Below, in pieces: positions 1,871-60,211 of a DNA stretch of 64,000 nucleotides. How positions within the stretch are numbered: the stretch's first letter is position 1; each line of letters starts with the position of its first letter. Under the pieces are notes generated by a model that was not told the DNA's origin, did no database searches, and was given only the letters and a program-made list of their open reading frames with translations. The translations under genes and the position numbers were made by a program. Origin of the DNA: a virus. The stretch lies in IMG/VR virus record IMGVR_UViG_3300045988_134537; one strand, written 5' to 3'.

Positions 1871-1969
1871 TAGTACGGGCCTGTACACAAGAACTACGTA
1901 CTAATTACGGGCTGTTGGTTGTAGCATAAAATCTCTATAGGATAGGAATGCGCGTCCGGTTCGATTCCG
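1871..1969 (+). ncRNA. Composite element copy 0: hairpin (7-bp stem TAGTACG/CGTACTA, 19-nt loop) followed by a tRNA-like T-arm (TCCGG-TTCGATT-CCGGA) and a partial acceptor-like pairing; not a canonical tRNA
   Basis: Canonical GGTTCGATTCC T-arm motif; element sits 30-35 nt upstream of gene start 2003; too short and lacks a D/anticodon cloverleaf. Confidence 0.4.
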
Positions 1970-2002
1970 GAGCAACCTCTAAATTATAAATAATATAATA
2001 GC

Positions 2003-2929: not shown

Positions 2930-3125
2930 AGCAGGCGGTAGGGCGTGGGCTGAAGTCTCTCTATTCTCTCTATGGAATGATATTATCTCTAAACACCCCA
3001 CACTCCATGCCAGAGTATAAGCTTGTAGCGCTCTCCGTATGCCGGTAGTGAGGCCGAGAGCGCAGTTTCTATGCGGAAAGCCGGAGGATTAGCGGGAGTT
3101 GGAGAGGGGGAGAGGGAGGGCACTC
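2930..3125. other. GC-rich structured segment inside the AT-rich 1-kb non-coding region: 8-bp inverted repeat GCGCTCTC/GAGAGCGC (about 3028-3063), CT-rich tract (about 2957-2982) complementary to GA-rich tract GGAGAGGGGGAGAGGGAGGG (about 3101-3120); candidate structured ncRNA or regulatory element
   Basis: Local GC content far above surroundings; long-range complementary tracts; no ORF. Confidence 0.3.
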
Positions 3126-3350
3126 TCTTCCAACAAGATTAAGACTTACAGCGTTTTAAAACAGTATTCTGTAGGTTTTCCAACAAAATAAAGTATGATA
3201 GCGTTTTAAAACAGTATTCTGTAGGTTTTCCAACAAAATAAAGTATGATAGCGTTTTAAAACAGTATTCTGTAGGTTTTCCAACAAAATTCAACAGATCA
3301 GTGCTTTAAAACGGCATAATGTGAGTTTATTCTACAAAATTCAATAGGTT
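3125..3350. repeat. 50-bp tandem repeat (AGCGTTTTAAAACAGTATTCTGTAGGTTTTCCAACAAAATAAAGTATGAT): 3 perfect copies plus flanking degenerate copies; each unit contains the palindrome GTTTTAAAAC
   Basis: Direct reading; period exactly 50 bp (GCGTTTTAAAAC at about 3151, 3201, 3251). Confidence 0.85.
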
Positions 3351-3418
3351 GAGAGTTGAAAACTATATTCTATAGATTAGTAGTAATCGGAATGTATAAC
3401 AATTAAAACATAAACAAC

Positions 3419-3679
3419 ATGAACGTATATGACTTTGCGCCTGACTTAGATTTGAGTAAGGAGGAAGAAGGTTCTATTTTTGGGGTAAAAGGAATAGAAG
3501 ACGGTGATGGTATAGTATATGCTAAGGTAGTTAGCTGTGAAGAAGTTAAGGATTACAGTTGTGAGGGGTGTATTTTTTATGATTGTTATAAGGATAAATG
3601 TTTATTATCGCGTAGTGATAGTTGTATAGATGGAGATTGGATTTGTAGGTACGAACAGGCTGCCATAGAGGGGGAGTAG
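3419..3679 (+). CDS. hypothetical Cys-rich acidic protein (86 aa)
   Basis: Track ORF, ATG start. Confidence 0.5.
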   Translation: MNVYDFAPDLDLSKEEEGSIFGVKGIEDGDGIVYAKVVSCEEVKDYSCEGCIFYDCYKDKCLLSRSDSCIDGDWICRYEQAAIEGE

Positions 3680-3787
3680 GCGGCGCCTTGGGCTAAGGCC
3701 TGCGGTTGTAGGTGGAGCGTAGGCCAGGGCAGAGCCGGAACAGTTTATTGTGGAACGTGAAAAGAACAGATAAAAAAAGGAGGAGAT

Positions 3788-3868
3788 ATGAAAAAGATAT
3801 TTAAGACATTCTCTATTATGTTTGTCATAGAAATAGTGTTGATAGCTATTTTAGATGCTATGGCGTAA
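3788..3868 (+). CDS. possible 26-aa hydrophobic peptide (MKKIFKTFSIMFVIEIVLIAILDAMA) preceded by AAAGGAGGAG
   Basis: Hand-translated; strong SD-like purine tract; very short. Confidence 0.25.
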   Translation: MKKIFKTFSIMFVIEIVLIAILDAMA

Positions 3869-3912
3869 GTGAGGAAGATTTTCTTCATTAATTTTCTTAT
3901 GCTTTAGACAGA

Positions 3913-3993
3913 ATGCTCCCGTCTGCGAAGATCGGAGTATTTGCTTTATGGGATTCATGGTGCAGTAGGTCGGTTCGATTCCGGCGATCTCAC
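3913..3993 (+). ncRNA. Composite element copy I: hairpin (stem ATGCTCC/GGAGTAT, loop CGTCTGCGAAGATC) + tRNA-like minihelix (TGGGATT acceptor-like strand, T-arm GTCGG-TTCGATT-CCGGC, GATCTCA, then C)
   Basis: 7/7 acceptor-like pairing including wobbles; canonical T-arm; 3' tail ATCTCACA-A-rich shared with copy II; 30 nt upstream of gene 4023. Confidence 0.45.
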
Positions 3994-4022
3994 ACAACAT
4001 TAAAAACAAAGGAGGAAAGAAA

Positions 4023-4364
4023 ATGAAAGATGGTATTACATTACATCCAGAACACGGATTGAATCCGTCTATAGAAGTCTGCATGATATGTGGCGAAGAG
4101 ATGGGCATTGCTTTATTAGGAAATAATATCAAAGGTCAGGCGCCGCATCATATATGCACGGGCGGAGTATGTGACGATTGCAAAAAGATAATAGATGATG
4201 GTGGTTGTTTTATTATCGAGGTTGAAGATGGATCAGATCAAAAGAATCCGTATCGTACAGGAAGATATTGTGCGATAAAGAAAGAGGCGGCAAAGAAGAT
4301 ATTTGGACAGGAGCATAATATTGTGTACATGGAAAAGTCTGCATACAGTCAAATAATACCATAA
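4023..4364 (+). CDS. hypothetical Cys-rich (zinc-ribbon-like) protein, 113 aa
   Basis: Track ORF; AAAGGAGGAAAG upstream; multiple CxxC pairs. Confidence 0.6.
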   Translation: MKDGITLHPEHGLNPSIEVCMICGEEMGIALLGNNIKGQAPHHICTGGVCDDCKKIIDDGGCFIIEVEDGSDQKNPYRTGRYCAIKKEAAKKIFGQEHNIVYMEKSAYSQIIP

Positions 4365-4378
4365 AAATAAAGAAGGAT

Positions 4379-4693
4379 ATGTTTACAAAAGAAGAGCGAT
4401 TATTCATATGGAAAAAGGTATATGAGATGATTGATAGGTTAGAGGATGGGGAATACATATGTGTTGCGTTAAGAAATGTAGTGTTTATGTATTTCAAAAC
4501 ACATAAAAATATCTATGAGTTTCGTTCAGACGAAATGGTGAGAATATATTTCCCGGAATTGGAGGAGAAGATAAGTATGGCCACAGAACCAGAGGAGACA
4601 AGAACGTTTTATGGGTGGTTTGGTTGTCTTAGTCCAGAAACGAAGGAGGTAAGGCTGAATATTGTGAAAGATATTATAAAAGAATTAGAATAG
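4379..4693 (+). CDS. hypothetical protein (104 aa)
   Basis: Track ORF, ATG. Confidence 0.55.
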   Translation: MFTKEERLFIWKKVYEMIDRLEDGEYICVALRNVVFMYFKTHKNIYEFRSDEMVRIYFPELEEKISMATEPEETRTFYGWFGCLSPETKEVRLNIVKDIIKELE

Positions 4694-4739
4694 TATTTTT
4701 GTTAATCTATTTTATTCATCAAATTAAGTTTTGGGTTTT

Positions 4740-4847
4740 GGCATGTCGGTTCGTGAGGATAGGCATGCCTATTTCTGCATCATAGAGGGGATGACGCGGC
4801 GTGCCGGTGCGTATGTGCCGGTCCTGGTTCGATTCTGGGCATCTCAC
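4740..4847 (+). ncRNA. Composite element copy II: hairpin (stem GGCATG/CATGCC, loop TCGGTTCGTGAGGATAGG) + D-armless tRNA-like structure (GGGGATG acceptor-like strand, GCCGG/CCGGT hairpin, T-arm CCTGG-TTCGATT-CTGGG, CATCTCA, then C)
   Basis: 6/7 acceptor-like pairing; canonical T-arm; same 3' tail as copy I; 22 nt upstream of gene 4869. Confidence 0.45.
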
Positions 4848-4868
4848 AAACAATAAAACAAAAAAGTT

Positions 4869-5078
4869 ATGAGAATATATAAGAATGATATTATAAAGGC
4901 GTCAGCAATAAGCACCGGAGCCGACAGAGGCGTGTTGCTGTGTTCAATAACAGATTCAGGCTTTACGTCTATAGCGGGCGTAATATCGGCTGTTAAGGAT
5001 AGGTTACCAAACGAAGATCACAAGAAGATGGTTTTTGAAATCTTGAATGATACGAAAAAAAGAGTACGGAAGATATAA
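4869..5078 (+). CDS. hypothetical protein (69 aa)
   Basis: Track ORF. Confidence 0.45.
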   Translation: MRIYKNDIIKASAISTGADRGVLLCSITDSGFTSIAGVISAVKDRLPNEDHKKMVFEILNDTKKRVRKI

Positions 5079-5160
5079 TAATTGCGGAACAAAAGTATTG
5101 TAATAAAGAGTAGAAAACAATATGTTTATGTAATATTAGTTTTTTCATTTTTATTGAAAG

Positions 5161-5195
5161 GAGCGCCGGCCTGTGAAGGTATGCGCTCTTTGTAT
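5161..5195 (+). terminator. Hairpin GAGCGC / GCGCTC with 16-nt loop CGGCCTGTGAAGGTAT followed by a T-rich tract; member of the conserved-loop hairpin family
   Basis: Direct reading. Confidence 0.5.
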
Positions 5196-5222
5196 TTGTA
5201 TAATACATAAAACAATAATAAG

Positions 5223-5477
5223 ATGACAGATAATAACATAGATGTGAATATCGTACCTGTAAAGAATGGTATGAAACGTGTTGTGGTATCATATTACCAT
5301 TATTCACGCAAGGACAAAAATCACATGAGTTCCCAAACGGATTACGTTTGGGAAACAAAGAATGAAGAAATGTTTAAATACTTTGAGGCCAGGAGGACAA
5401 AAGTATTTTATAGTCAGATTCGTGCCATGTGTAGATTCTATGGCAAGAAAAATGTACGTAAATACAAAAAGTTATGA
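5223..5477 (+). CDS. hypothetical protein (84 aa)
   Basis: Track ORF. Confidence 0.5.
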   Translation: MTDNNIDVNIVPVKNGMKRVVVSYYHYSRKDKNHMSSQTDYVWETKNEEMFKYFEARRTKVFYSQIRAMCRFYGKKNVRKYKKL

Positions 5478-6241
5478 TATTAAAAACGACAACCAACGAG
5501 TTTTGTTTCATTAACGTAAGTTTCTACGAAACAATAGCAGATCCTCGTCATTTCTTTGAACAGGATTATGAAGAGATGCCAGAATATGAGGAGGAATCGG
5601 ATTTTGATTTTGATTCTTATTACAATAAGTTTATTCCTTTTGTACAGGAATGGGCGAATGAGGTAAGTGAACGCCTTTACGGATATGGCGTGAATAACAT
5701 AAAGGTAACATCGGTCGGATATCCGAAAGAATATAATTATGGTACTGATTGGATGAACGTAGAGGTAGAGTTTTGTGATGAATGGAGGCAAAAGATGTTA
5801 TCTAACATTAGTAAGATTGTCAATGATGATAAATGCAAGAAGTATGCGGAGACTAATTACCGGTCGGTATCAGGATACATCTTTTTAGGGCCTGAAGATT
5901 TAAAGGAATTTGAAAAGGAAATAATAGAAAGAAAGTCGGATTTCGGATATGATGTAACAATATTATTAAATATGTATCTAACTTTGGCTTTTGTAAAAGA
6001 ATTTGGATTTAAAGCCGGAGAAGCATGGAGTGAAATAACAGAATATGCTTACGGATGTTTATCGTATTCCGATTTTGCAACAACAGAGATGCTTATACCG
6101 GAAGGTTCGGAGCATTTATTCAAAGACATTTACACGGCAAAGGCCGACGAATTATATCATCATGTCCTGGATAAATTCGGATGGGCGTGGCGTGATCCGA
6201 AATATAAGTCAGAAACAGAATTATGCGCGATGCTAAAGTGA
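5474..6241 (+). CDS. hypothetical protein with acidic N-terminal segment (255 aa)
   Basis: Track ORF; 4-nt overlap with upstream gene. Confidence 0.6.
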   Translation: MILKTTTNEFCFINVSFYETIADPRHFFEQDYEEMPEYEEESDFDFDSYYNKFIPFVQEWANEVSERLYGYGVNNIKVTSVGYPKEYNYGTDWMNVEVEFCDEWRQKMLSNISKIVNDDKCKKYAETNYRSVSGYIFLGPEDLKEFEKEIIERKSDFGYDVTILLNMYLTLAFVKEFGFKAGEAWSEITEYAYGCLSYSDFATTEMLIPEGSEHLFKDIYTAKADELYHHVLDKFGWAWRDPKYKSETELCAMLK

Positions 6242-6346
6242 GCAAAAGAAAAAGGCTTGACCATTGAAGAGTTAAGTATTTAATTGTTAAACATAAGGCA
6301 GTAGTGGTGCGTGAGTATAGGTGCTGCCGTTAAAATATTTTATAAG

Positions 6347-6595
6347 ATGAAAAAAGAAGAGATTCAAACTATTTTATACACAATCAAAGAAGGAGACAGT
6401 ATTAAAATCAAAGTACAAGACAAAAGTGAAGAGATAAGACTGCGGGATCATGTAAGAAGAGTACAGAAATACGGATACAGGTTTTGTTTGTCTCATTTAC
6501 ATGATGGAATTTTCTATCTGGAGAAGTTGAAAGAAGGGGATAAGGATAAATACTATAGAGTAATAAACAGAGGAAATGGAAAGACCGGAGTATAA
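6347..6595 (+). CDS. hypothetical protein (track 6311..6595 begins at GTG; first ATG at 6347)
   Basis: Track ORF. Confidence 0.45.
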   Translation: MKKEEIQTILYTIKEGDSIKIKVQDKSEEIRLRDHVRRVQKYGYRFCLSHLHDGIFYLEKLKEGDKDKYYRVINRGNGKTGV

Positions 6596-6869
6596 TAAGC
6601 TACGCAAAATGGCTAAGACTACTCCAGGTCTGATAGTGGACGAGGTGCAAAACATGATGCGTGTATCGCTGTATGATAATGGGGAACTTAAGAAGGTGGT
6701 AGTAGTAATGAAATGCGATTCTTTTTTACAGTCAAAAAGTAACATAGAAAAGATAATGTTATTATCATCTTCTATAGAAGATAGAAAAAACAAAGAAAAA
6801 AATAAAACAAAATCAGAAAATGAACAGAATAACAAAAATAAGAGAAGAAATAGGAGGAAAACAGGTTGA
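6576..6869 (+). CDS. hypothetical protein with Lys/Asn-rich low-complexity tail; overlaps both neighbours
   Basis: Track ORF; tail comes from an A-rich tract and may be non-genic. Confidence 0.3.
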   Translation: MERPEYNKLRKMAKTTPGLIVDEVQNMMRVSLYDNGELKKVVVVMKCDSFLQSKSNIEKIMLLSSSIEDRKNKEKNKTKSENEQNNKNKRRNRRKTG

Positions 6870-7203
6870 TTTGACCTTTTACGGGCGCTTTTGCAGCCTT
6901 ATCGAAGGTGATAGGAAGATAATACTAAGGGCAATAAAAAACGGTCGTAAGAAGGGCGTAATTGGGGCCATTCAGCCTGGGAGACATGATAGAATTTGGA
7001 CCACATGGTCTGTCGCTTTTGATGATCTGAAGGTAGGGGATACGGTAGAGTTCAGTACATCTGGAAAATACAATCCCGGATTTCATGCTACGGAAAAGTA
7101 TGTAGGGTGTGTAGAATGGATAAAAGGATCGGAATGTGCGATAAAAACCGGTAAGGGAATAGCAGTAGTATTAATTAAACACGTAGAAAGGATAGTAAAA
7201 TGA
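6820..7203 (+). CDS. hypothetical protein (127 aa)
   Basis: Track ORF. Confidence 0.5.
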   Translation: MNRITKIREEIGGKQVDLTFYGRFCSLIEGDRKIILRAIKNGRKKGVIGAIQPGRHDRIWTTWSVAFDDLKVGDTVEFSTSGKYNPGFHATEKYVGCVEWIKGSECAIKTGKGIAVVLIKHVERIVK

Positions 7204-7484
7204 TGGGGTTGAGAGAATTTGTAGAACTTTTTGACAAGAATGAAGTAAAGAACTTGTTTAAAGCGTTAGATTTATGTATGGAATATGTAAGATTAGATTT
7301 ACATGTGTTTAATGTAGGAGCTCATGTAACATGTTCATACAGTAATGATCTTGAATCGCTTTCACAGGCAGAAGGTTGTAATGTGAATATGATAATAGAG
7401 GTGCCTCGCTTATTCGAAGCGTTCATGGAATACGCTTCACCGGAAATGAAGTTGTATTATGAAAAACTAACAGAGACAGTATAA
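7200..7484 (+). CDS. hypothetical protein (94 aa)
   Basis: Track ORF; ATGA overlap with upstream gene. Confidence 0.5.
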   Translation: MMGLREFVELFDKNEVKNLFKALDLCMEYVRLDLHVFNVGAHVTCSYSNDLESLSQAEGCNVNMIIEVPRLFEAFMEYASPEMKLYYEKLTETV

Positions 7485-7485
7485 T

Positions 7486-7959
7486 ATGAAAGAGGAAGTA
7501 GAACGGATAAAGAGGTTGGTTGGCATAGATCATAATAGATGGGAGCAGCCTTGTACATGTGATAAATGCAAGAACATGTGTAAGGTTCCTTGTATTGGTA
7601 CACCAAAGGACATAGAAGCTATCATAGATGCAGGATATGCTGACAGGCTAAAAGAGACAATGTGGATGGTGGGGTATCTTGCAGTGAAAGAAAAACCAAT
7701 AGCGATGATCCAACCAACAGAGAAAGACGGGTGGTGCGTGTTCCGCCGGCCAGACGGTCTCTGCGAGCTGCATGACCGTGGACTAAAGCCGACTGAAGGA
7801 GTTCTGGCTTCTTGTAAGGTGGTTGAAGAAGACGATATTCCGACATACGAAACATCCGTACTTAGAGCAGTAGCTCACGAGTGGGTTAAGGTGGAGAACT
7901 TTGGAAATGTAATGAAGGTCGTTTTTAAATTTTTGCATGAAAATGAACGTAGAAAATAA
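7486..7959 (+). CDS. hypothetical Cys-cluster protein (CTCDKCKNMCKVPC motif), 157 aa
   Basis: Track ORF; clustered cysteines suggest a metal-binding site. Confidence 0.55.
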   Translation: MKEEVERIKRLVGIDHNRWEQPCTCDKCKNMCKVPCIGTPKDIEAIIDAGYADRLKETMWMVGYLAVKEKPIAMIQPTEKDGWCVFRRPDGLCELHDRGLKPTEGVLASCKVVEEDDIPTYETSVLRAVAHEWVKVENFGNVMKVVFKFLHENERRK

Positions 7960-8347
7960 ATTAGATAAAGTGGTTAAGATCCTAAAAGAAAAAGGATTTA
8001 TTGTGTATAAGAAAGGCGGGAAGGAGCCAGGTGTGTTTTACGCTAAAGAAGGTGACAGCCGAATAGGATTCGTTTATCCCAACAACGGATATATATACGA
8101 CAGGATAAAAATGTGGTCTTTTTCAAGGATATATAAACCGCATAAGAAAACAGGGTCTTCGTGTTTAATGTGTGTCAGCGACGAATTTACTATAGAAAAT
8201 GCGATTAAGAGCATAGAAGATAGACTGTGGGTAAATTATATAAAAGACGGTAACAGAAAACGACCAGAAGAATATAAAGATATAAGAGAATTTGTTGGTA
8301 GCTTCACTAAATTCTACAGCTCTGTAGAATTAGTTGAGGTTAAGTAG
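7937..8347 (+). CDS. hypothetical protein (136 aa)
   Basis: Track ORF. Confidence 0.55.
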   Translation: MKMNVENKLDKVVKILKEKGFIVYKKGGKEPGVFYAKEGDSRIGFVYPNNGYIYDRIKMWSFSRIYKPHKKTGSSCLMCVSDEFTIENAIKSIEDRLWVNYIKDGNRKRPEEYKDIREFVGSFTKFYSSVELVEVK

Positions 8348-8365
8348 TTTTCCATGCGAGTTAGT

Positions 8366-8404
8366 TGCCGGCACTGGTCTGTGAAGATAGGTGCCGTTTT
8401 TTTT
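8366..8404 (+). terminator. Rho-independent terminator: stem CGGCAC/GTGCCG, 16-nt loop TGGTCTGTGAAGATAG, then T-run of about 10
   Basis: Direct reading; loop shares CTGTGAAGATAG with the other family members. Confidence 0.7.
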
Positions 8405-8426
8405 TATTCAAGAAAGGAGGACAAAG

Positions 8427-8678
8427 ATGGGAAAAAGAGACAAGGAGATACCTTATGAGGTAGTCATACAGGAAAGAAAAAGAGTGGATTTATACGGTAA
8501 CGTAGTGTATTATATCTACTGGTTTGATAAATATGGGAACGATATTACAAACGAATGGAAATTCTGGAGCAAGGGTCCGAAAAAGAAATACGATAGAGTT
8601 AATCGTTATCTAACGGATAGTTGGATAAAGGAATACTGTAAGAACAACAATTTAAAAATAAGTAGAATAAAGGAATGA
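8427..8678 (+). CDS. hypothetical protein (track 8391..8678; likely real start is the ATG after GAAAGGAGGACAAAG, MGKRDKEIPYEV...)
   Basis: Track ORF; the non-ATG upstream extension lies within the terminator hairpin. Confidence 0.5.
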   Translation: MGKRDKEIPYEVVIQERKRVDLYGNVVYYIYWFDKYGNDITNEWKFWSKGPKKKYDRVNRYLTDSWIKEYCKNNNLKISRIKE

Positions 8679-8765
8679 AGCCAGGAAAGTATGTTATGGT
8701 AACAAACGAGTGTGGTGCCTTGGATGTTATAAAAGAAAAATTCGATAACATAAATATAGTGGAAT

Positions 8766-9134
8766 ATGGATCTGAATGAATTGTACAAAGAAATAGAAAA
8801 AGCAGAGGTTGATCTGAATGCAAAAAGATTAAAGTACATCAAAGAGGCATTAGTGGAGAACGGTGGAAGTATAAAGCTAAAATTCAAAGAATTTAAAGAG
8901 TTTAAAGAAACTAATGATGCGTTTGACTTCGATGATCAGTTTCCGGTGATAATAGAAATTGCTGGGATTCCTATGTATTTAACGGAAGTGTATGTCAAAA
9001 AAAACGATTTTCGTATAGTTCTGCTGGATTATGATGATATGACTTTAGGTGATTATGATAATACAGGGGAAAATGAACAGGTTGCTTATTTTATTAACTA
9101 TTGTTTAAATCAAGACAAAGATGGGAAAGAGTAG
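8766..9134 (+). CDS. hypothetical protein (122 aa)
   Basis: Track ORF. Confidence 0.55.
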   Translation: MDLNELYKEIEKAEVDLNAKRLKYIKEALVENGGSIKLKFKEFKEFKETNDAFDFDDQFPVIIEIAGIPMYLTEVYVKKNDFRIVLLDYDDMTLGDYDNTGENEQVAYFINYCLNQDKDGKE

Positions 9135-9309
9135 AAAAGATTATGAGAAGTTTCTTAACTCCATATCTCCAGATAGAGACGATGAAACATGGATCATTGG
9201 AGGAAAGAACAGGTATTGCGGTAGAGAGAATTATGGCACTATGATCAAAAGGTATGATCCTATTGGTTTTAATGTAGGATACAGGGAGTGGGTAGAACAG
9301 CCAGAGTAA
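9121..9309 (+). CDS. hypothetical protein (62 aa)
   Basis: Track ORF. Confidence 0.4.
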   Translation: MGKSRKDYEKFLNSISPDRDDETWIIGGKNRYCGRENYGTMIKRYDPIGFNVGYREWVEQPE

Positions 9310-9402
9310 GGCGGCGCCTGCCCTGCCATGAGGTCGGCCTGGCTGTCTGTGGCCAGGACCGTACATTAGTCAGATAGTGAACGACGAAAACAATACAAAT
9401 GT

Positions 9403-12274: not shown

Positions 12275-12490
12275 GGAGATGGGGAGATCATGAGGGTGTA
12301 TTATCAGAAAGAACACCAAAGAATTACAAATAATACTGATTCAGGTCAATGGCTGATAGTGACGGACGCCACAGGAGACAGGTGGGTAAAGTGCGAAGAG
12401 CTCCGGTTCGGGGGGGGGAGACGCGGCCTGCATCACATGGCGTAAGGCTACAGTAGATGAAATTGTTGAACATTTTAAAAACAGATAATT

Positions 12491-17439: not shown

Positions 17440-17470
17440 AATTATCATCCGTATGTTTTACAACATACGG
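17440..17470 (+). terminator. Perfect 11-bp hairpin CATCCGTATGT / ACATACGGATG with 6-nt loop between the two paralogs
   Basis: Direct reading. Confidence 0.45.
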
Positions 17471-17511
17471 ATGTCGTAAAATAGTATATAATTACTAAAA
17501 CAAATAAGATT

Positions 17512-41300: not shown

Positions 41301-41674
41301 TTTATCTACAAGAGCTATTCCATTGCATAGATCATTGGAATATCCTTTATTAGACCAATTTTCTTTTGTATATAATCCTCCATCTACATGTTGGATGTAT
41401 ATGCCTTTATTGATTATAAGCGAGGGATTTACCCCATCCCTATTTGAAATCTTCGTCTCATGATTTTTGTTTGCAAGATAGCAATAATTGACAACATAAA
41501 AGAAACCGGTTCCCTATCATCTCTGACTGAGAACCGGTAAGAAAACAATTTCAGAAAAAATTAAACCTACATAATCTTTCAAGTAAGAACAAAAAACGTA
41601 CAATCTACTCTTTGACGATGCTAATATAACATATTGGAATCATACAAAAACAATGCAAGTCCGATATTCTTCGT

Positions 41675-44600
41675 CTACTTGTAGCTAACATCATCGTCCC
41701 CTTCCGAATCAGGAGTAGCGCCGATGAAGAACATCATTGACTTGTTGTTCGTCTGCTGCCACCAATTATAGGCGCGCGCTACGTCTTCCGGCGTCTTGAT
41801 ATTATACCATTGTTTGATAAACGTCTGTTTGGCGAGTTGCCTAAATAACTTAGACTCTCCCTTGTATGTACCGGATGTTACTTTATCAAGTGAATAATTC
41901 CTAAGATCGGTAAGATCCTTCAGTTTTCGCCCCATAACAAACGGATCGTTAATGATATCTACCACGTTAAGCTCCATAATAAACGGCATCTGTGAAGCTA
42001 TTTCGTTTATGGTTCTGAATCCGACATAGGATCCAAATTGAGTAAGCCAACTTTCTTCGTTTTCATCATCATCACGCCATCCGGCAAGAAGCATAGATAC
42101 GGCCTGCATGATAAGGAACGTGCCGGCATAGACACTGAGACGTTTGAGATTGGTTTTTTCTACCTCATTCATATTGTCTTTATTTTCATTCCAGGCATCT
42201 ATGATGTTTTTCATACCAGACTCGGAAGCCAGGCTAAATGTTTTGGCTATCATATTCTTTAACGTAATTGACAGTCCTTCCTCTTCTTGCATTGTCTGGA
42301 AATTGAAGCCACGTCTTTTCCACAGACGTTGAGCCGCCAGCACCAACCATCCTCGGTGGGCGGTCATGAACCTGGCTATCCAGTTGCGCGATGCGGCAGT
42401 TCGGTTTTCTTCATTCAAAGATCCGTTACATATCTGCGACAAGCTACGAACTTGATTTCTGGTTATAGCCATCTGGGTTTCAACTTCCTCAACAGTAACA
42501 CCCGATCCGGGCTTTACAACCACCTTCCCATCCACGACATCTACCATACTCCATAAAGTACGATCTTTTAATGCATTCCATTCTCTTTTTATGGTACTCT
42601 GTTCTTTACCACGTTCTTTTTCCATCTTGAAATCCTGGAACGTGTAGAACCGGCCTTTATAGTATCGCACGTTATCCATAGTGGCAATCATAACCTGCGG
42701 ATCAAGAGGGTAGTTCAGGATTTCCATAAAAGCATACATCGGTGAACGCATTAAGGTCCTGGCCACTCTATTGTATCCGGCACCATACATTCTGTTTCGT
42801 ATGTTGAAAATACCCATTCTCTCACCTATGACATATAATTTACTTTTTCTATCTATGTCTCCGGTTTCTGCTATACAAGATGGCGCAAGGCGTGAAAACT
42901 CAGCCGATGCGTATTTAAGGGAGTCTTTGCTTATATACTGTCCTACGGCAGATTCCATGATGAGGTTGATATGGCCGGTAAGGGCGCCGGTAGCTGCCAC
43001 AAACGGAGACAGTGCCAAGTTCATAACCGACATAAATCTTTCAACAGCCATCATAATTCTTGTAAGGTCTACCGTATATCCTCCGATGTTCACCGTAAGT
43101 TTTTTGGTGTTCATCCTAATGCCATAATAATGATCGTTGAAGAAGTCCCTGAACATCTGATATGCTTGGGTTGCTTCAGCCTTCTTACCGCCTTCAAATT
43201 GTTTATTCAGTAACATCTGCTCCAGTCCTTGGGCAAGCTCTATAGACTTCTGCTTTTCGTTATATAACGATGACTGCATCATAAGCATCGAATAAGAGTA
43301 GCCAAAATCGTGAGATACATCATCTTGGTTCTCCAACTCATATATGTAGTATTTAGGTATAGACCTAAGTCTGTCTTCCGGATCATATACTTCCCCTTGC
43401 CTGGTCTTACCATATAGAGAATCGTCTACTCTGTCCAGGCACAGATCTGATACAAAATTACGAACCGTATTTTTGAAGTTAATACCCAATCCTTCCATAC
43501 GTTCTATGTCTTGTTTTGATATCTGTGGAATAGCATACAAATTGGGACTCTGCTCTTTGTATAGATCAAGGGATTGTCTTTTTATTTCCTTGAGTTTTTG
43601 AATCATATTCCACTGCTCTACGTTTTTAGTAGCAACTTCATTACCGTCAGCATCATACTTGATACCAAAGTCATTGAAATACGATTCATCACGATACAGG
43701 CTTTTCTTAGGCATGCGATGACCATACCCATGATCTTTTACATAATCAGGATTACGGCCGCTATTTTCGGCTTCAGATTCAGCCACCCATGCCCTTGCAG
43801 GATCGAAAGACAGGTACGATATGTCCATGCCATAATCTTGGGTGGATGTACCGTTTTGTACGTCCTTAACCATCTGCGCCACATCTATCTCACCTCGACC
43901 TATTTTGTCGATCATGGCCGCATATCCGGTAGGCGCCATGCGTTTATAGTACGAAAAGACCTGGCTCCTGGCAAATTCATTAACAATAGCATTGGTCTCT
44001 TCTATGCCCTCTTCTCTTGTATTATTTAAAAACAAGCTGGCCATCTTAGCATTAACAGCATTCCTGAAATCTCTACCGTCTAATTCTTTGCTTATACCAA
44101 GCTTTTCTGACAGGTAGTTGGTTTCAGATACGGTAAACAGATATCGGTTATCAGCAGCCTTAAACAGCTTATCCCTTAAAGCCTGAATCCTTTTTGCTTT
44201 CTTCGCCGTAGTATGACGTTGTACGAACTTCCATTCCACTTCCTTGGAGTCAGCAAGAGCATTTAAATAAGACTGATTTACTTCGTTTTCGGCCTTACTG
44301 CTTTTAGTAAGGTACTTATCAATATCTTCAAGACCCACCATCTTAGCATAATCTATTAAGATAGCGTAATCAGCTTCAATAGCTTCAGATGCGGCCCTAA
44401 AAGCATCTCTTTCAGATGAGGTAAATGTCGCTTCGTTAATTTCTCCGATATCAGCCACATCTCGGTTGTTTCCGATTATTTCCTTGATAATGGCCTTATT
44501 TTTTTCTATATCTTTCACAATCGAATCCACGTCAGTCGCATCTCTATCACTTGTCGTAGAACTAATGATATCATGCGCCATTTTAAGATACGAAGCCTTG

Positions 44601-47600
44601 TTATTTGATTCGGTACGCGCCGACTGTTCCGATTCTACTTCATTCCAAAACCGATCATTGAACGACAGGTGACCTCCCAACATAAGTGTCTTCAGCGCAG
44701 CTTCTCCTCCCGACTCGCTCTGAATCGTTCTTAATTTTTGCAAAAACGATTCTGATACGGCATTGGTAACATTATTTGATTCCTTTCTCCAAACTTCATT
44801 TATAGCTTGTATTTCTTTAGCCATCTTAAGTTGGTCGCCGGTTTTTTCCACTCTCCTGGTTCCTACATATATGTATTCTGAAGCTGCTTCCTTACGTTGT
44901 TTACGAAGCAGTCCTTCTTCTTCGTAATTGCTGCTTTTAAAATAGGCAACCTCATCAAAATTACCACCGCTATCAATAAAAGGCTGCCTCAATATCCGTT
45001 TTTGCCTGGATAGAGCATTAAGGTATTCTTTGGTTGTTTGAGAAACCGGATGCCCTAATTCTTCTTCAGCCTTTTTGTATATGGATTCCATTCTTGTGGC
45101 ATAACTTTCGCTAAATTCCAGTTCCGAATTTTCAGCATCCCACTTTTCCATCTGTTCTGTATAAATCTTTTCCTGCTCGATGGTAAAAATATCGGTATTA
45201 ACTCTATCAGACGATGGTTTGAATTTAGCGTTTTCAGTAACCGTATTTCCATCCTTGTCAACTACTTCTCTTTTAAATACGTAATTACGGTTATTGTCAA
45301 CCACATCACCAATTTCTTCTTCTGATATCTCTATGTTCATGGCAGTCGCAAACGCTCGCATCTGCGCCAGCTTCTTATTACGATCGTATTTAGCCATATC
45401 AAGAGCACTACGAAGGTAATTAGAAGTTTTGCCGTCTACTTTCTGAAGCAGTTTTTCAAATTCAGATTTGTTAAAACCATGCTTTTTAGCATATGCCAGG
45501 AAGTCGGATATGGCGGGCTGGGCATTCACCATCGCATTGTAATTGTCTTTGGCAATCATAGCTCCAAGAGCGTTATTGAACGGACTGGAAGAATGCTCTA
45601 ATATACCAAACCACCTACTTATCCAAGAAACATCGTGTTGAACCTTGTCGAAAAATTCTTTTACTCTCTTTACCTTATCTGCCGGCACATGAAGTTCGTT
45701 CATTAACTTATCAAGCAACGTACTTTCATCAAGGTCTTGTACTGATTTAATATCAGACTGAATACCATTGATGTCGGCAATGACGGTATTGATCCTATTT
45801 GTATAATCTTGCTTTTCACGTTCATCAAATTCGGTACTTCTGTTACGGATATATCCTCGAAGATCGTTCATGATCGGAAGAACCTGATTGTTGATAATAT
45901 CTACGTTCTTTCGATCATTGGTATTGAAATGAAGCTTACCGTCTTTGGTATCACCATGAAGGATAGTATTTACTACGTTGCTTAAGTATCTGACCTGAGC
46001 TTCGGCTGTGGAGATCATGCTGTTCATGGCAGCCGCCATCTCATTCTTGTCTATTTCGGTCTCTACCTTATTTATCTTATCCTCTATGGTCTTAAGCTGA
46101 GCAAGGGTCATAGACGTAGTTACAGCCCTATCAGAGCTTATCTGACGCAAGTCTCTTAAGGTTTTTCTCAATGCCCGGATCTTAGACTCAAGAAACTTGT
46201 TCTTGTTCATAGAGGAAAGGGAGTATAATGTAAAGTCATTATCCTTTAACAGAGAGGTGTCAAATCCTTTATCTATGTCGGTAATAGCAAGATCACGAAT
46301 GTTTTTAATAACGTTATTCAAATCTTGTCTTTGAGTAGATAAAGCTGATTTAAGCCAGCTTACGATTCCAGAGAGAAGCTGCCGGACACGCCCCAGGAAG
46401 GAGGTGGGCTCTACAGGCGCCTGTGCTGTGCCGGTCTGCATCTCCCTGGCGAGGATCTTTCCAAGAATTTCTCTCCTAACCGCATTATCAAGTTCGGTTC
46501 CTTCATATACTTTACCGTATGTATTATAATACTGACCTGCATACTGGTTCCACTCTTCCGTACCTTCTACGTCTTGCAAAACATCCTCAACAGCATTCTG
46601 ATCTCTGTATGCCTCTACAAGGAAGTGGGATGTTTCTTCTACTAAATCAGATAAAGTAGCATCTTCACCAACTGCTATTACGTTATTGGCAATATCCGCC
46701 AATGCCTTAGCAGAAGGTTCATGCCCGTATTTGGTTTGATACTTCTCTATATAGTCGGTCATACCTATGACACTAACGCCCAGCGTTTTCAATATCTCTA
46801 CAATAGAATTTCGTTGGTCACGTTCCTGCCTGCTATAATCCGATACGATCTTAGCTTTAGTATCAGCATAAAGATCGTTGTCTTCTAATATGAATGAAAC
46901 TACAAGCGCATCAAAATGATCGTACTTGGCGTCCAATTCATTGTATCTTCCTGACTTGAGATCGTTCTTTATCTGCCCCCTGCTAACCCTTTCCGTTCCT
47001 CCGGTGGCGAGTCTCATAGTTACCTTACTGTTATCCAACGAGCTTATGGTTATCATACCTTGGTCGTTCATGGAAACATCGGAACCAAAATGATTACGGA
47101 GCTCGGTGTATGATAAGGCTGAATTGAAAAGTCTAATTTGTCCTGTATGACCTTCTCCTGTAAGATAATAGCTTCTTGTTTCAGGATCGAATATCTTAGA
47201 TCCTGACAAAAGACCTTTCTTTATAAGGTAGTTAATTATACCACCTTTTGTTGATAAAGAAGTAGAAGCAGAAGCGGTCATGACCGGTATAAAAGATTTG
47301 GGGTTGTTAAGAACATACTTTCCAGCTTTGTAAGTAATGTCTGCCACGCCATCCACGGCAGATTCTTGAACGGTGCCTGATAAGAACCCTATTCTAATAT
47401 CATTCCCGCCAGAGCGAAGAGCTTCTCCGTAATCTTCAAATAATTGGCTACGATCGTTCATGAAAAACAAACGAGGCTCTCCGGTCTGATACGTTACACC
47501 CACAGGATTAGAATCTGTTTCTGGTAGCTCTTCTGGGCTAAATATCTTAAGACCGTCTTTTATAACCATATAATTAACACCCTTATCCTGTACCATAGAT

Positions 47601-48128: not shown

Positions 48129-48238
48129 GTTAAAAATCAAGCATATCATAAAAAATAAAGCCACCTAACTTCTCAGTCTGATGGCTTAAAATGATATGAA
48201 AAAAAATTATAATCTGACGAAAAATCGTCAAGTTCAGC

Positions 48239-48562
48239 TTATATGTAATGCATGTACCCATCTCGGTGAATAAACCTTCCCGATTCAAAGCGCTCAATAT
48301 CTTCAGGGCAAATAGGGCCCGAATCCTCTCTCCTGGCTTCAAACCAAAGCCCCGGCTTACGAAGTCGGCAAGTTATGATATAGTTAAAGCAATTGTGCGT
48401 AAAATGGAAAACAGATCCTACAGGGAAATACCTATCAGCTTGAAATACGATTCTTTTTCGTTTAGTATCAAACGTGATATCTCCTACTATCTTAGCCACG
48501 TAATAGCTTCTGCCATTTAACGTTTCATCTGTTTGTGGTATCCAATAATAACCTCTTGCCAT
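48239..48562 (-). CDS. hypothetical protein (107 aa)
   Basis: Track ORF. Confidence 0.5.
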   Translation of the reverse strand: MARGYYWIPQTDETLNGRSYYVAKIVGDITFDTKRKRIVFQADRYFPVGSVFHFTHNCFNYIITCRLRKPGLWFEARREDSGPICPEDIERFESGRFIHRDGYMHYI

Positions 48563-56943: not shown

Positions 56944-57230
56944 GATAAAAAAAATAGGCCCAAAAGAGAATGTCAGATCCCACTATGACAAACCCTAATG
57001 AGCCAAAAATATCTTTCAACATCAAACAACCAGAGGTGGGATCTCGTTGTTCATTGTTTCTGAAACAAAGATAGGAACAGGATCTTAAATAGCAAATATT
57101 TTAATACTTTTTAAATCAAACCAGGGCCCGCATCACTGCGAACCCTGATCTACACTAATCTAAACTAATACCATGAAAAACTTAAATCTAAAAACTAAAG
57201 AACACACAAATGTATGAAAATGTATGCTTT

Positions 57231-57428: not shown

Positions 57429-57654
57429 TTCCTACTGTTATTAGTTACGTTCGGTTCTTACTTTTTCCTTATTTCCATAATCCCTTCCTGAAACTAATAT
57501 CGCAAACTTAACAAAAAATAATCCATAAACAATGAAAACCTAACTTTTCTTGTATGTTATTGATATACGTACATATATGAGAAAAGTGAGACTTTCACAA
57601 GCCTCACTTCCCAAATTGTGATTATGAAAAAACTATATCATATATATACAAAAA

Positions 57655-59913: not shown

Positions 59914-60211
59914 AGTGATAAATATTTTGGACAAAGGTACTATAAAAAATATAAATCATGATAATTTAACCAACAAAACCACCATACTCTAGAAGGACCA
60001 ACTCTTTTATTTGAAGTTTTAGCCTTATTCTCTACTCCCTTCAAAGATATAGTAACCTTGCTCTTGTATTCAATATCCCTTCAGTTGCAAACTCCTTCAC
60101 TTACGTTTCCAACAAATCTGTCATCAACATAAACCTCTATATCCCCCTGCTGATTGGTCTTCAACTGGTAAGAAACAAGACTTGAAGTATCTTCGTATCT
60201 CCTTCTCATAC

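What the first reader, a model, noticed from the sequence alone, without database searches (positions are those of the whole stretch)
3913..8404. Family of hairpins with a conserved approximately 16-nt loop (CTGTGAAGATAG core)
Four + strand hairpins have unrelated stems but near-identical loops: 3920-3933 CGTCTGCGAAGATC, 4746-4763 TCGGTTCGTGAGGATAGG, 5167-5182 CGGCCTGTGAAGGTAT, 8372-8387 TGGTCTGTGAAGATAG. A relaxed fifth copy is at 1878-1896. A relaxed loop variant TGTCTGTG occurs at about 9343-9350, and GTGCGAAGAGC at about 12392. Two of these are followed by T-runs (terminator-like) and two form the 5' half of the tRNA-like composite elements. Conservation of loop rather than stem sequence implies a sequence-specific reader (an RNA-binding protein, a nuclease, or a phage polymerase termination signal) rather than plain intrinsic termination.
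Basis: seen in the sequence. Interest (0 to 1): 0.55.

Follow-up and report, generated by a model that had tools for sequence, protein, structure and literature searches.

The report
Capped RNA hairpin family in gut phages
A small RNA hairpin with an almost invariant 16-base cap recurs between genes of this crAss-like gut phage and of many other Bacteroides phages, always just before a U-run or a tRNA(-like) gene, so it looks like an undescribed signal that marks RNA ends and is read by some unknown factor.

Summary
The "conserved loop" is structured. A variable 6-10 bp basal stem carries a cap, 5'-Y R G U N Y-GUGA-R N A U A G-3'. The cap folds as a Y-G pair, an R.A mismatch, a G.U wobble, three covarying pairs and a GNRA tetraloop.

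All are intergenic and on the sense strand.

The related phage crAssE-Sib has 12-13 copies. The exact 16-mer cap occurs in at least 120 IMG/VR contigs and at least 120 metagenome contigs, on dozens of unrelated but complementary stems. It is also present in cultured Bacteroides phages (crAss001, DAC15, PhiCrAssBcn). No Rfam family or paper describes it.

About half of the copies are followed by a U-tract. About 28% are followed, typically 5 nt later, by a tRNA or mini-tRNA, against 1-2% for controls.

Best reading: an RNA 3'-end-defining stem-loop. The end is made either by intrinsic termination or by RNase P cleavage. The cap is probably a docking site for an unidentified reader.

The parts
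3911..3942 (+). Capped hairpin 1. The cap is CGTCTGCGAAGATC: C.C mismatch, G.U, TCT/AGA, GCGA loop. It lies 41 nt after the stop of a 26-codon ORF and 6 nt before tRNA-like element B.
   Evidence: -14.7 kcal/mol, z -3.2; 29.2 bits. In relatives the G.U alternates with A-U, and the outer pair A-U alternates with G-C through a G.U intermediate.
3949..3992 (+). tRNA-like minihelix B. The acceptor-like stem is TGGGATT/GATCTCA, the linker is 13 nt, and the T-arm is GTCGG-TTCGATT-CCGGC (3969-3985). ARAGORN does not call it.
   Evidence: the T-arm matches the tmRNA/tRNA T-arm consensus; 71 orthologs; a TC->CT swap in the T-stem keeps pairing.
4739..4770 (+). Capped hairpin 2. The cap is GGTTCGTGAGGATA: G.A, G.U, TTC/GGA, GTGA. 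It lies 45 nt after the stop of ORF 4379-4693 and 17 nt before tRNA-like element C.
   Evidence: -16.9 kcal/mol, z -4.2; 31.6 bits.
4787..4846 (+). tRNA-like element C. The acceptor-like stem is GGGGATG/CATCTCA. It has one internal arm and a T-arm, CCTGG-TTCGATT-CTGGG (4823-4839).
   Evidence: the acceptor pairing appears in the MFE fold; own acceptor/T-arm detector, span 60; 43 orthologs; A/G changes opposite U.
5159..5190 (+). Capped hairpin 3. The cap is GGCCTGTGAAGGTA, with an extra C.U mismatch below it. It is followed by a U-rich tail and lies between ORFs 4869-5078 and 5223-5477.
   Evidence: -18.7 kcal/mol; 34.7 bits.
6297..6328 (+). The cap is GGTGCGTGAGTATA. It has no proximal U-run. 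The next ORF starts at 6348.
   Evidence: -16.2 kcal/mol; 24.5 bits.
8367..8398 (+). Capped hairpin 5. The cap is the canonical TGGTCTGTGAAGATAGG. It lies 19 nt after the stop of ORF 7937-8347 and is followed by T9 (8397-8405). The next ORF starts at 8427.
   Evidence: -16.4 kcal/mol; 35.9 bits. The loop is GTGA or GCGA in relatives.
41506..41537 (-). Capped hairpin 6. The cap is AGTCAGAGATGATA: A.A, G.U, TCA/TGA, GAGA. It lies 137 nt downstream of the 2140-aa virion RNA polymerase gene (41675-48097, - strand) and has a U-rich tail.
   Evidence: -19.6 kcal/mol, z -4.4; 26.8 bits.
48157..48188 (-). Capped hairpin 7. The cap is AGACTGAGAAGTTA. It lies 50 nt after the stop of ORF 48239-48562 (- strand), has a U-rich tail, and sits just upstream of the vRNAP gene start.
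   Evidence: -14.0 kcal/mol; 33.2 bits.
57581..57612 (-). Capped hairpin 8, a variant. The cap is GGCTTGTGAAAGTC, with G-C in place of the mismatch and the G.U kept. It lies 42 nt after the stop of ORF 57655-59934 (- strand).
   Evidence: -19.4 kcal/mol, z -4.9; 27.4 bits.

Best explanation
These are RNA stem-loops transcribed from the sense strand of intergenic spacers.

Structure. Each has a freely evolving 6-10 bp basal helix. On top sits a nearly fixed 16-nt cap, 5'-Y R G U N Y-G U G A-R N A U A G-3'. The cap folds as a Y-G pair (C-G or U.G), an R.A mismatch, a G.U wobble, a U-A pair, two covarying pairs and a GNRA (mostly GUGA) tetraloop.

Proposed role. The hairpins mark the 3' boundary of transcription or processing units. 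In about half of the family a U-tract follows at once, so intrinsic termination would leave 'hairpin + short U tail'. In about a third, the 5' end of a tRNA or of a stripped-down tRNA-like minihelix follows 2-10 nt later, with U at -1. RNase P cleavage there would leave the same kind of product, 'hairpin + about 5 nt tail'.

Role of the cap. The cap is dispensable for either reaction. It is therefore inferred to be the docking site of a trans-acting factor acting on that terminal hairpin. The factor is more likely host-encoded, because the phages carrying the motif are very diverse. It could protect against 3' exonucleases or control read-through.

Shown: the structure, the covariation, the purifying selection on the cap, the wide distribution, and the U-tract and tRNA contexts.
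For: Structure:
- Identical fold for all 8 window copies, with z-scores from -3.2 to -4.9.
- G.U at pair 4 in 12/13 aligned members. Pairs 1-3 and all outer pairs change on both sides.

Tests of pairing that did not presuppose pairing:
- Exact 16-mer hits have at least 6 contiguous complementary flanking pairs in 31/50 viral contexts and 46/80 metagenome contexts. Chance is about 0.3%.
- RG-NNN-GNRA-NNN-TA sites with other triplets are complementary 91 times against 41 expected.

RNA strand: G.U/U.G pairs are common and non-standard pairings (which would include the A.C expected if the opposite strand folded) are rare. All 8 window copies point the same way as the upstream gene.

Selection: polymorphic columns are 2/55 in conserved cap positions, 12/70 in outer stems and 52/210 in flanks, across 72-80 orthologs. 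Upstream of tRNA-Glu in crAss001, DAC15, PhiCrAssBcn4 and two uncultured phages, the cap is 16/16 invariant while the stems are completely replaced. In a sister epsilon species the hairpins before tRNA-Met and tRNA-Arg persist while the tRNA-Arg acceptor sequence has changed.

Context:
- By class: U-tract 52 and weak U 26 of 169; tRNA/TLS 48 of 169.
- A tRNA or TLS starts 0-19 nt downstream (mode 5) for 48/169 family hairpins, 4/181 other GNRA hairpins and 31/3000 random positions.
- An ARAGORN tRNA lies within 40 nt for 16/68 family hairpins against 1/79 others.
- N(-1) is U in 24/29 and N(-2) is A in 18/29. From my own knowledge, this matches the known RNase P leader preference.

Density: 8 per 64 kb in the window; 12-13 per 151 kb in crAssE-Sib; none above 17 bits in 97 kb of unrelated bacterial or archaeal loci.
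Against: - No transcript-end data exist for any copy.
- Two window copies (6297-6328, 4739-4770) lack a good U-tract. One (6297-6328) has neither a U-tract nor a tRNA-like element.
- Inside tRNA arrays the upstream unit is itself a tRNA, which needs no protective 3' hairpin.
- One crAssE-Sib copy (57015) lies antisense to its annotated neighbours.
- No candidate reader protein was found.
- Host chromosomes could not be surveyed. I cannot say whether the motif is phage-specific or a general Bacteroidales feature.
- About a quarter of the family (43/169) fell in neither context class by my detectors, although several of these still look tRNA-like.
Confidence: 0.45

Rival explanations
1. Ordinary Rho-independent terminators. 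GNRA tetraloops are common in terminator hairpins. The shared cap would then reflect a folding or thermodynamic optimum, or common descent, and not a reader.
For: U-rich tails follow most window copies and 78/169 family members. All copies are downstream of stop codons on the sense strand. A Bacteroides sRNA terminator in Rfam (BTnc231) also has a C-GUGA-G apex.
Against: The cap conserves three non-Watson-Crick positions (Y.G, R.A, G.U), which weaken the helix. The BTnc231 terminator apex is fully Watson-Crick. Many members have no U-tract and abut a tRNA instead. The cap is invariant while stems turn over completely between phage families. The cap is depleted of polymorphism. Common descent cannot explain dozens of unrelated stems.
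Confidence: 0.2
2. A 5'-leader element of the downstream tRNA or tRNA-like RNA. The capped hairpin would act on the RNA that follows it, for example by tuning RNase P processing, insulating tRNA folding, or protecting a primary 5' end. It would not act on the RNA that precedes it.
For: The spacing to the tRNA/TLS 5' end is tight (mode 5 nt), whereas the distance to the upstream stop is loose (19-137 nt in the window). The hairpin persists inside tRNA arrays where the upstream unit is a tRNA. The cap is more conserved than the tRNA body.
Against: About half of the family has no tRNA-like element downstream, only a U-tract and a protein gene; this holds for six of the eight window copies. A U-tract directly after the stem has no role in a leader model.
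Confidence: 0.15
3. A nut/boxB-like antitermination or read-through control site. A phage N-like arginine-rich protein would bind the GNRA cap on nascent RNA and modify RNA polymerase, so that the chain of terminators in the early operon is overridden in a timed way.
For: Five co-oriented copies punctuate the early-gene block 3.4-9.4 kb. The GNRA loop closed mostly by U-A resembles lambda boxB (own knowledge).
Against: No conserved boxA-like or other sequence lies within 40 nt on either side (mean information 0.06-0.07 bits). Copies also occur after late/structural genes, after the Ro60 gene and in tRNA arrays. The motif occurs in phages of very different gene content, and no N homologue was identified.
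Confidence: 0.1
4. A DNA-level element: a cruciform or protein-binding site for replication, recombination or packaging, or a mobile repeat of the REP/MITE type.
For: It is an imperfect palindrome repeated many times per genome.
Against: The G.U/U.G pairs and the GNRA loop are strand-specific; on the other strand they become A.C mismatches and a UYNC loop. Orientation follows gene direction. Copies share only the cap, not the stems or flanks, so they are not copies of a mobile unit.
Confidence: 0.03

Closest known systems
Rho-independent (intrinsic) terminators with GNRA tetraloops
   Same: A stable hairpin directly downstream of a gene on the sense strand, often followed by a U-tract. GNRA loops are frequent in terminators (own knowledge). 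The Bacteroides BTnc231 terminator has a GUGA apex.
   Different: A 16-nt cap with three fixed non-Watson-Crick positions is conserved across unrelated phages. About 28% of members have a tRNA(-like) 5' end within about 20 nt downstream (mode 5 nt); most of those lack a U-tract.
Lambda/P22 boxB hairpins of nut sites (N-dependent antitermination)
   Same: A short hairpin with a GNRA-type fold, mostly closed by U-A. It is read (in lambda) by a peptide that recognises shape plus a few bases. Several copies occur per phage early region (own knowledge).
   Different: There is no boxA partner. A true tetraloop sits on a 4-bp stem above a mismatch. The sites are at gene 3' ends with U-tracts or before tRNAs, not downstream of promoters. 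No N-like protein is known here.
tRNA punctuation and RNase P-made 3' ends (mitochondrial transcripts; MALAT1-mascRNA; RNase P cleavage of bacterial polycistronic mRNAs)
   Same: A tRNA or a reduced tRNA-like minihelix lies directly downstream of a protective structure, so that RNase P cleavage would create the upstream RNA's 3' end (own knowledge). U(-1)/A(-2) spacers fit this.
   Different: Cleavage is not shown here. The protective structure is a capped hairpin, not a triple helix. The same hairpin is used interchangeably with a U-tract.
Histone mRNA 3' stem-loop and SLBP; iron-responsive elements
   Same: A small hairpin whose apex and one helical irregularity at fixed spacing are conserved while the lower stem varies. 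In histone mRNAs the end is made about 5 nt after the stem, and the hairpin is read by a dedicated protein (own knowledge).
   Different: Eukaryotic systems, unrelated sequence. This is an analogy of logic only.
Phage intercistronic hairpins: T4 C(UUCG)G hairpins, T7 RNase III sites, bacterial REP elements
   Same: Repeated stable hairpins between phage or bacterial genes that shape mRNA ends and stability (own knowledge).
   Different: T4 hairpins share only a tetraloop. T7 RNase III sites are longer two-helix structures. REP copies share their whole sequence. Here only a 16-nt cap is shared.
SRP RNA domain IV apex
   Same: Similar architecture: a GNRA tetraloop, three pairs, then a symmetric non-canonical internal loop that is a protein-binding platform (own knowledge).
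   Different: The internal-loop sequence differs (AGG/AGC type against YRG/UAG). There is no Rfam SRP hit. I saw no evidence of mimicry.

Membership tests
Intrinsic (Rho-independent) terminator | Stable G+C-containing RNA hairpin on the sense strand downstream of a stop codon | tested here: met
   all 8 window copies, -14 to -19.6 kcal/mol, 19-137 nt after a stop codon.
Intrinsic (Rho-independent) terminator | U-tract starting within 0-2 nt of the stem | tested here: inconclusive
   Strong in 3 window copies (8367-8398 with T9, 48157-48188, 41506-41537), moderate in 3, weak or absent in 2. Family-wide, 52 strong and 26 weak of 169.
Intrinsic (Rho-independent) terminator | Causes transcript release by RNA polymerase | not testable with these tools
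   Needs Term-seq or in vitro transcription.
Any described RNA family (Rfam 15) | Match to a covariance model at or near its gathering score | tested here: not met
   No gathering-level hit in the window. With E up to 10 on 8 kb, 66 nt and 101 nt stretches, only chance-level hits appeared.
Lambda-type nut site (boxA + boxB) | Conserved boxA-like sequence near the hairpin | tested here: not met
   no position outside -7..+10 of the cap exceeds 0.28 bits across 127 distinct members.
Lambda-type nut site (boxA + boxB) | Cognate N-like antiterminator protein | not tested
   No search for arginine-rich small proteins was made.
RNase P-dependent punctuation (tRNA or tRNA-like element downstream) | Acceptor/T-arm minihelix beginning a few nt after the hairpin | tested here: met
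   2 of 8 window copies (elements B and C). 48/169 family members against 4/181 and 31/3000 for controls.
RNase P-dependent punctuation (tRNA or tRNA-like element downstream) | Leader nucleotides favourable for RNase P (U at -1) | tested here: met
   U(-1) in 24/29 and A(-2) in 18/29, against a background T of 0.35.
RNase P-dependent punctuation (tRNA or tRNA-like element downstream) | Actual cleavage at the tRNA-like 5' end | not testable with these tools
   Needs an in vitro RNase P assay or 5'-P end mapping.
Canonical tRNA gene (for the composite elements in the window) | Cloverleaf recognised by a tRNA finder | tested here: not met
   ARAGORN finds 0 genes in the window. Elements B (44 nt) and C (60 nt) lack D and/or anticodon arms.
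REP/MITE-like repeated element | Copies share the whole element sequence, including stems and flanks | tested here: not met
   Alignment A1 and the flank analysis: only the cap is shared.
T7-type class II termination signal (ATCTGTT) | Fixed TCTGT core sequence | tested here: not met
   The inner triplet covaries (TCT, TTC, CCT, TGC, ACT, TCA, CTT, TAT, TTT). From my own knowledge, the phage polymerase is of the two-barrel type and not T7-like; searches show only a virion structural protein related to crAss-like 'RNA-polymerase subunit' genes.

The most novel reading that the evidence does not exclude
The cap is the recognition element of a dedicated, still unknown RNA-binding factor of Bacteroidales or their phages. 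Capped hairpins would then form a phage-wide 3'-end tag system. The tagged end would be made either by termination or by RNase P cleavage at tRNAs and at mini-tRNAs that have been reduced to pure processing signals. This would be a bacterial-virus analogue of histone-SLBP or MALAT1-mascRNA logic.
Probability: 0.3. Interest if true: 0.8.

Novelty: new variant of a known kind. Interest (0 to 1): 0.68.

Why it matters
crAss-like and other Bacteroides phages are among the most abundant viruses of the human gut, yet almost nothing is known about how their transcripts are ended, processed or stabilised.

This hairpin is a compact, easily searchable element. It is present in cultured phage-host pairs: crAss001 with B. 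intestinalis and DAC15 with B. thetaiotaomicron. Its function is therefore directly testable by end-mapping, mutagenesis and pull-downs.

If a reader exists, that would reveal a new RNA-protein recognition module. It might also show a new use of tRNA-like elements as RNA-end generators in bacterial viruses.

In practice the motif helps annotation in three ways:
- it marks transcription-unit boundaries;
- it flags unannotated tRNA-like genes;
- it may be a signature of phage or prophage DNA in Bacteroidales-rich gut metagenomes.

Tried and rejected
- Rfam at gathering and permissive thresholds on the window and on single hairpins: nothing.
- ARAGORN on the window: nothing.
- The generic promoter/terminator scan misses these hairpins because of their internal mismatch.
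- Literature: sequence-string search found 0 papers. The crAssE-Sib paper, the phi14:2 vRNAP preprint, the crAss001 RNA-seq paper and the viral csRNA catalogue do not mention the motif.
- Distant relative through vRNAP homologues: only 3 hits. One 16.5-kb locus (L085, 46% identity) has only a look-alike hairpin, with loop TGTGATGG.
- Attempt to sample host chromosomes, which failed three ways. A TnpB-based genome scan gave only 5 loci, one of them Bacteroidales, with no motif. That locus has no housekeeping genes to extend from. The ThyA search returned only epsilon-crAss phages. The host question therefore stays open.
- Considered and dropped on sequence or structure grounds, partly from memory:
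  - kink-turn, loop E and sarcin-ricin motifs;
  - 11-nt tetraloop receptor;
  - SECIS (not adjacent to an in-frame UGA);
  - group II intron domain 5;
  - Y RNA Ro-binding stem (a superficial GGUC...GAAGGUAG resemblance only);
  - 16S h35 mimicry;
  - N4-type hairpin promoter (variable distance to the tRNA start; RNA-type wobble pairs);
  - Bacteroides -7 promoter box upstream of the hairpin (seen in some contigs, not general).

Full report
**What the window is.**
The window has 37.7% G+C. Positions 3400-9400 are 93.5% identical over 88% of their length to phage crAssE-Sib (OR575929, 151 kb, human gut), an epsilon crAss-like phage. The region of the finding is a block of small + strand ORFs. 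From about 40 kb onward the genes run on the - strand, including a 2140-aa virion RNA polymerase homologue. ARAGORN finds no tRNA and Rfam finds nothing at gathering level.

**Check of the observation.**
- All four hairpins are present. One loop coordinate is 3 nt off: the true position is 8375-8390.
- The "16-nt loop" is actually structured. Every copy folds as outer stem / 1x1 mismatch / G.U wobble / three base pairs / GNRA tetraloop.
- The three inner pairs differ between copies in a compensatory way: TCT/AGA, TTC/GGA, CCT/AGG, TGC/GTA, ACT/AGT, TCA/TGA, CTT/AAG.
- A structure-aware scan finds 7 copies on both strands, against 0.125 per strand in shuffles. It misses only the copy at 5159-5190, which has an extra mismatch.
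- Of the 11 long GNRA hairpins in the window, 8 carry G.U at pair 4 and 7 carry a mismatch at pair 5.
- A covariance model (R1, from alignment A1) separates 8 window copies (24.5-35.9 bits) from everything else (17.3 bits or less). The model was built from these copies, so the informative result is the gap.
- New copies are 6297-6328 (+), 41506-41537 (-), 48157-48188 (-) and 57581-57612 (-).
It survives because of the structure.

**Relatives.**
- In 80 epsilon-crAss contigs (94-99% protein identity) the five early-region hairpins are retained. Their variation preserves structure: GTGA alternates with GCGA, G.U with A-U, and A-U with G.U and G-C in outer pairs.
- Polymorphic columns number 2/55 in conserved cap positions, 3/25 in variable cap positions, 12/70 in outer stems and 52/210 in flanks.
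- The whole crAssE-Sib genome has 12 model hits plus one weaker member. These include copies 4 nt before tRNA-Arg, 6 nt before tRNA-Met, after tRNA-Lys and after the Ro60/TROVE gene.
- In a sister species (ThyA 82% identical) both tRNA-adjacent hairpins persist. Their stem changes preserve wobble pairing, while the tRNA-Arg acceptor sequence itself has changed.

**Beyond the lineage.**
- Bacteroides phage crAss001, from a different family (Steigviridae), has exactly one hit. Its cap is the identical 16-mer GGTCTGTGAAGATAGG, 6 nt before tRNA-Glu.
- The same arrangement is present in Kehishuvirus 'tikkala', the PhiCrAssBcn phages and DAC15/DAC17. Their hosts are B. cellulosilyticus, B. intestinalis and B. 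thetaiotaomicron.
- In an alignment of five such loci the 16 cap positions are invariant, while the basal stems are completely different yet complementary.
- These scans impose nothing on the flanks. Even so, 31/50 and 46/80 distinct contexts have at least 6 contiguous complementary flanking pairs, where chance gives about 0.3%. Most of the rest have one extra mismatch. The non-hairpin hits that I inspected by eye in the metagenome listing were G+C-rich contigs, which is what chance matches would look like; I did not quantify this.
- The same loci hold further members with other caps (TTC/GAA, TAT/ATA, TTT/AAA, TCC/GGA and others), 31 of 68 distinct 28-mers.
- Excluding the searched cap (60 distinct stems), the consensus is Y9 R10 G11 U12 N13 Y14 GUGA R19 N20 A21 U22 A23 G24. 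Positions 10/23 are G.A in 31 and A.A in 16. Positions 9/24 are C-G in 28 and U.G in 22.
- Nothing outside the cap is conserved.
- Control loci from unrelated bacteria and archaea (97 kb) have no hit above 17 bits.
- Large metagenome contigs carrying the motif show prophage-like neighbours: a KilA-N domain by Pfam, and N-terminal sequences that I recognised by eye as DUF4494-like and VRR-NUC-like, without a profile search.
- I could not sample host chromosomes properly.

**Context.**
- In the window all eight copies are intergenic, on the sense strand, 19-137 nt after a stop codon.
- Three have strong U-runs, three have moderate ones and two have weak or none.
- Two copies are followed by tRNA-like minihelices that ARAGORN does not call:
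  - Element B (3949-3992) has acceptor TGGGATT/GATCTCA and T-arm 3969-3985.
  - Element C (4787-4846) has acceptor GGGGATG/CATCTCA and T-arm 4823-4839.
  - Both are conserved in relatives, with pair-preserving changes.
- Family-wide, a tRNA or tRNA-like acceptor/T-arm helix begins 0-19 nt (mode 5) after the hairpin in 48/169 distinct members. The figures for controls are 4/181 other GNRA hairpins and 31/3000 random positions. ARAGORN alone gives 16/68 against 1/79.
- The spacer ends in U(-1) in 24/29 and A(-2) in 18/29. From my own knowledge, this fits the established leader preference of bacterial RNase P.
- U-tract members number 52 (strong) plus 26 (weak) of 169.
- The common denominator is a capped hairpin followed at once by something that can create an RNA 3' end.

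**Interpretation.**
I commit, at moderate confidence (0.45), to an RNA-end-defining stem-loop. The 3' end is produced by intrinsic termination or by RNase P cleavage at an abutting tRNA or mini-tRNA. The invariant cap is a docking platform for an unidentified factor.
- The cap cannot be explained by hairpin stability, because it fixes three non-Watson-Crick positions.
- It cannot be explained by common descent, because the stems are unrelated.
- A host factor seems more likely than a phage one, because carriers include epsilon crAss-like phages, Steigviridae and prophage-like elements of different gene content.
- In phi14:2, early genes are transcribed by the virion polymerase and later genes by host RNAP. 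Copies in both kinds of region therefore argue against a polymerase-specific signal.

The rivals are:
- plain terminators (0.2);
- a 5'-leader function for the downstream tRNA (0.15), favoured by the tight downstream spacing and by persistence inside tRNA arrays;
- a nut-like read-through switch (0.1), weakened by the absence of any boxA-like partner;
- a DNA-level element (0.03), contradicted by strand-specific wobble pairs and gene-parallel orientation.

**Novelty.**
No Rfam family matches. No paper in the searchable library contains the sequence or describes such a hairpin. I class it as a new variant of a known kind: terminator/processing stem-loops with a conserved, probably protein-read cap and an unusual coupling to tRNA-like elements.

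**Limits.**
- There are no expression data.
- Members used for covariation counts were partly selected by pairing. The non-circular tests are the 16-mer flank test, the triplet test and the orthologous comparisons.
- Half of the wide data set was selected by the exact cap, so consensus figures are quoted from the unselected half.

Noticed in passing
window 1917-1978, 3949-3992, 4787-4846: Three tRNA-like minihelices with an acceptor-like stem and a GGTTCGATTCC T-arm, lacking D and/or anticodon arms. ARAGORN and Rfam do not call them. They are conserved in 36-71 related contigs. They may be pure RNase P/processing signals or degenerate tRNAs.
   Followed up: partly
window 1873-1903: A hairpin upstream of tRNA-like element A. 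Its outer stem covaries in relatives (AGTACG/CGTACT to ATCACG/CGTGAT). It keeps the R.A + G.U platform but has a larger cap with a 3-nt bulge. The loop is GNRA in relatives (GCAA/GAAA/GTAA) but ACAA in the window. It is a divergent cousin of the family.
   Followed up: partly
window 3128-3289: A 50-nt tandem repeat, 3.2 copies, 94% matches (TTCCAACAAAATAAAGTATGATAGCGTTTTAAAACAGTATTCTGTAGGTT), in a non-coding stretch upstream of the early genes. More degenerate copies appear to follow up to about 3380.
   Followed up: no
window ~2508 and ~2583: Duplicated 19-mer ATTGGTCTAAAACGAAACT, about 75 nt apart, in a non-coding region. Ordinary terminator-like hairpins lie on either side, at about 2408-2442 and about 2600-2650.
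   Followed up: no
window 2930-3130, 3680-3740, 9309-9365, 12390-12440: Short G+C-rich islands in a 38% G+C genome.
   Followed up: no
window 3778, 4005, 8413 and other early-gene starts: Strong AGGAGG-type Shine-Dalgarno sequences precede many early ORFs. The presumed hosts are Bacteroidales, which from my own knowledge generally do not use SD pairing.
   Followed up: no
window 6239-6283: ORF 5474-6241 ends at TGA and continues in frame for 14 codons to TAA. This may be read-through or recoding, or it may be chance.
   Followed up: no
L083 22560-22980 (crAssE-Sib 72.56-72.98 kb): A repeated leader, GTGGTGATGG..TACTTCG, precedes tRNA-Tyr, tRNA-Lys and a further uncalled tRNA-like sequence, directly upstream of the Ro60/TROVE gene. 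crAss001 also encodes a TROVE protein. Y-RNA-like partners were not looked for.
   Followed up: no
L083 6998-7029 (crAssE-Sib ~57015, minus strand): One good family member (31.3 bits) lies antisense to both annotated flanking genes. It suggests an unannotated antisense transcript, or a copy that acts differently.
   Followed up: no
L095, L098, L099, L128, L273, L285 (gut viral/metagenome contigs): A recurrent module in prophage-like contigs: ORF stop, capped hairpin, 4-7 nt spacer, a 70-130 nt tRNA-like RNA not called by ARAGORN, then a gene whose N-terminus looks DUF4494-like to me (by eye, no profile search). This is the commonest context of the exact 16-mer.
   Followed up: partly
window 57119-57150 (-), 17444-17475 (-): Two fully paired GNRA hairpins without the cap signature (14.6 and 17.3 bits). 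They are probably ordinary terminators and show that the phage also uses uncapped ones.
   Followed up: no
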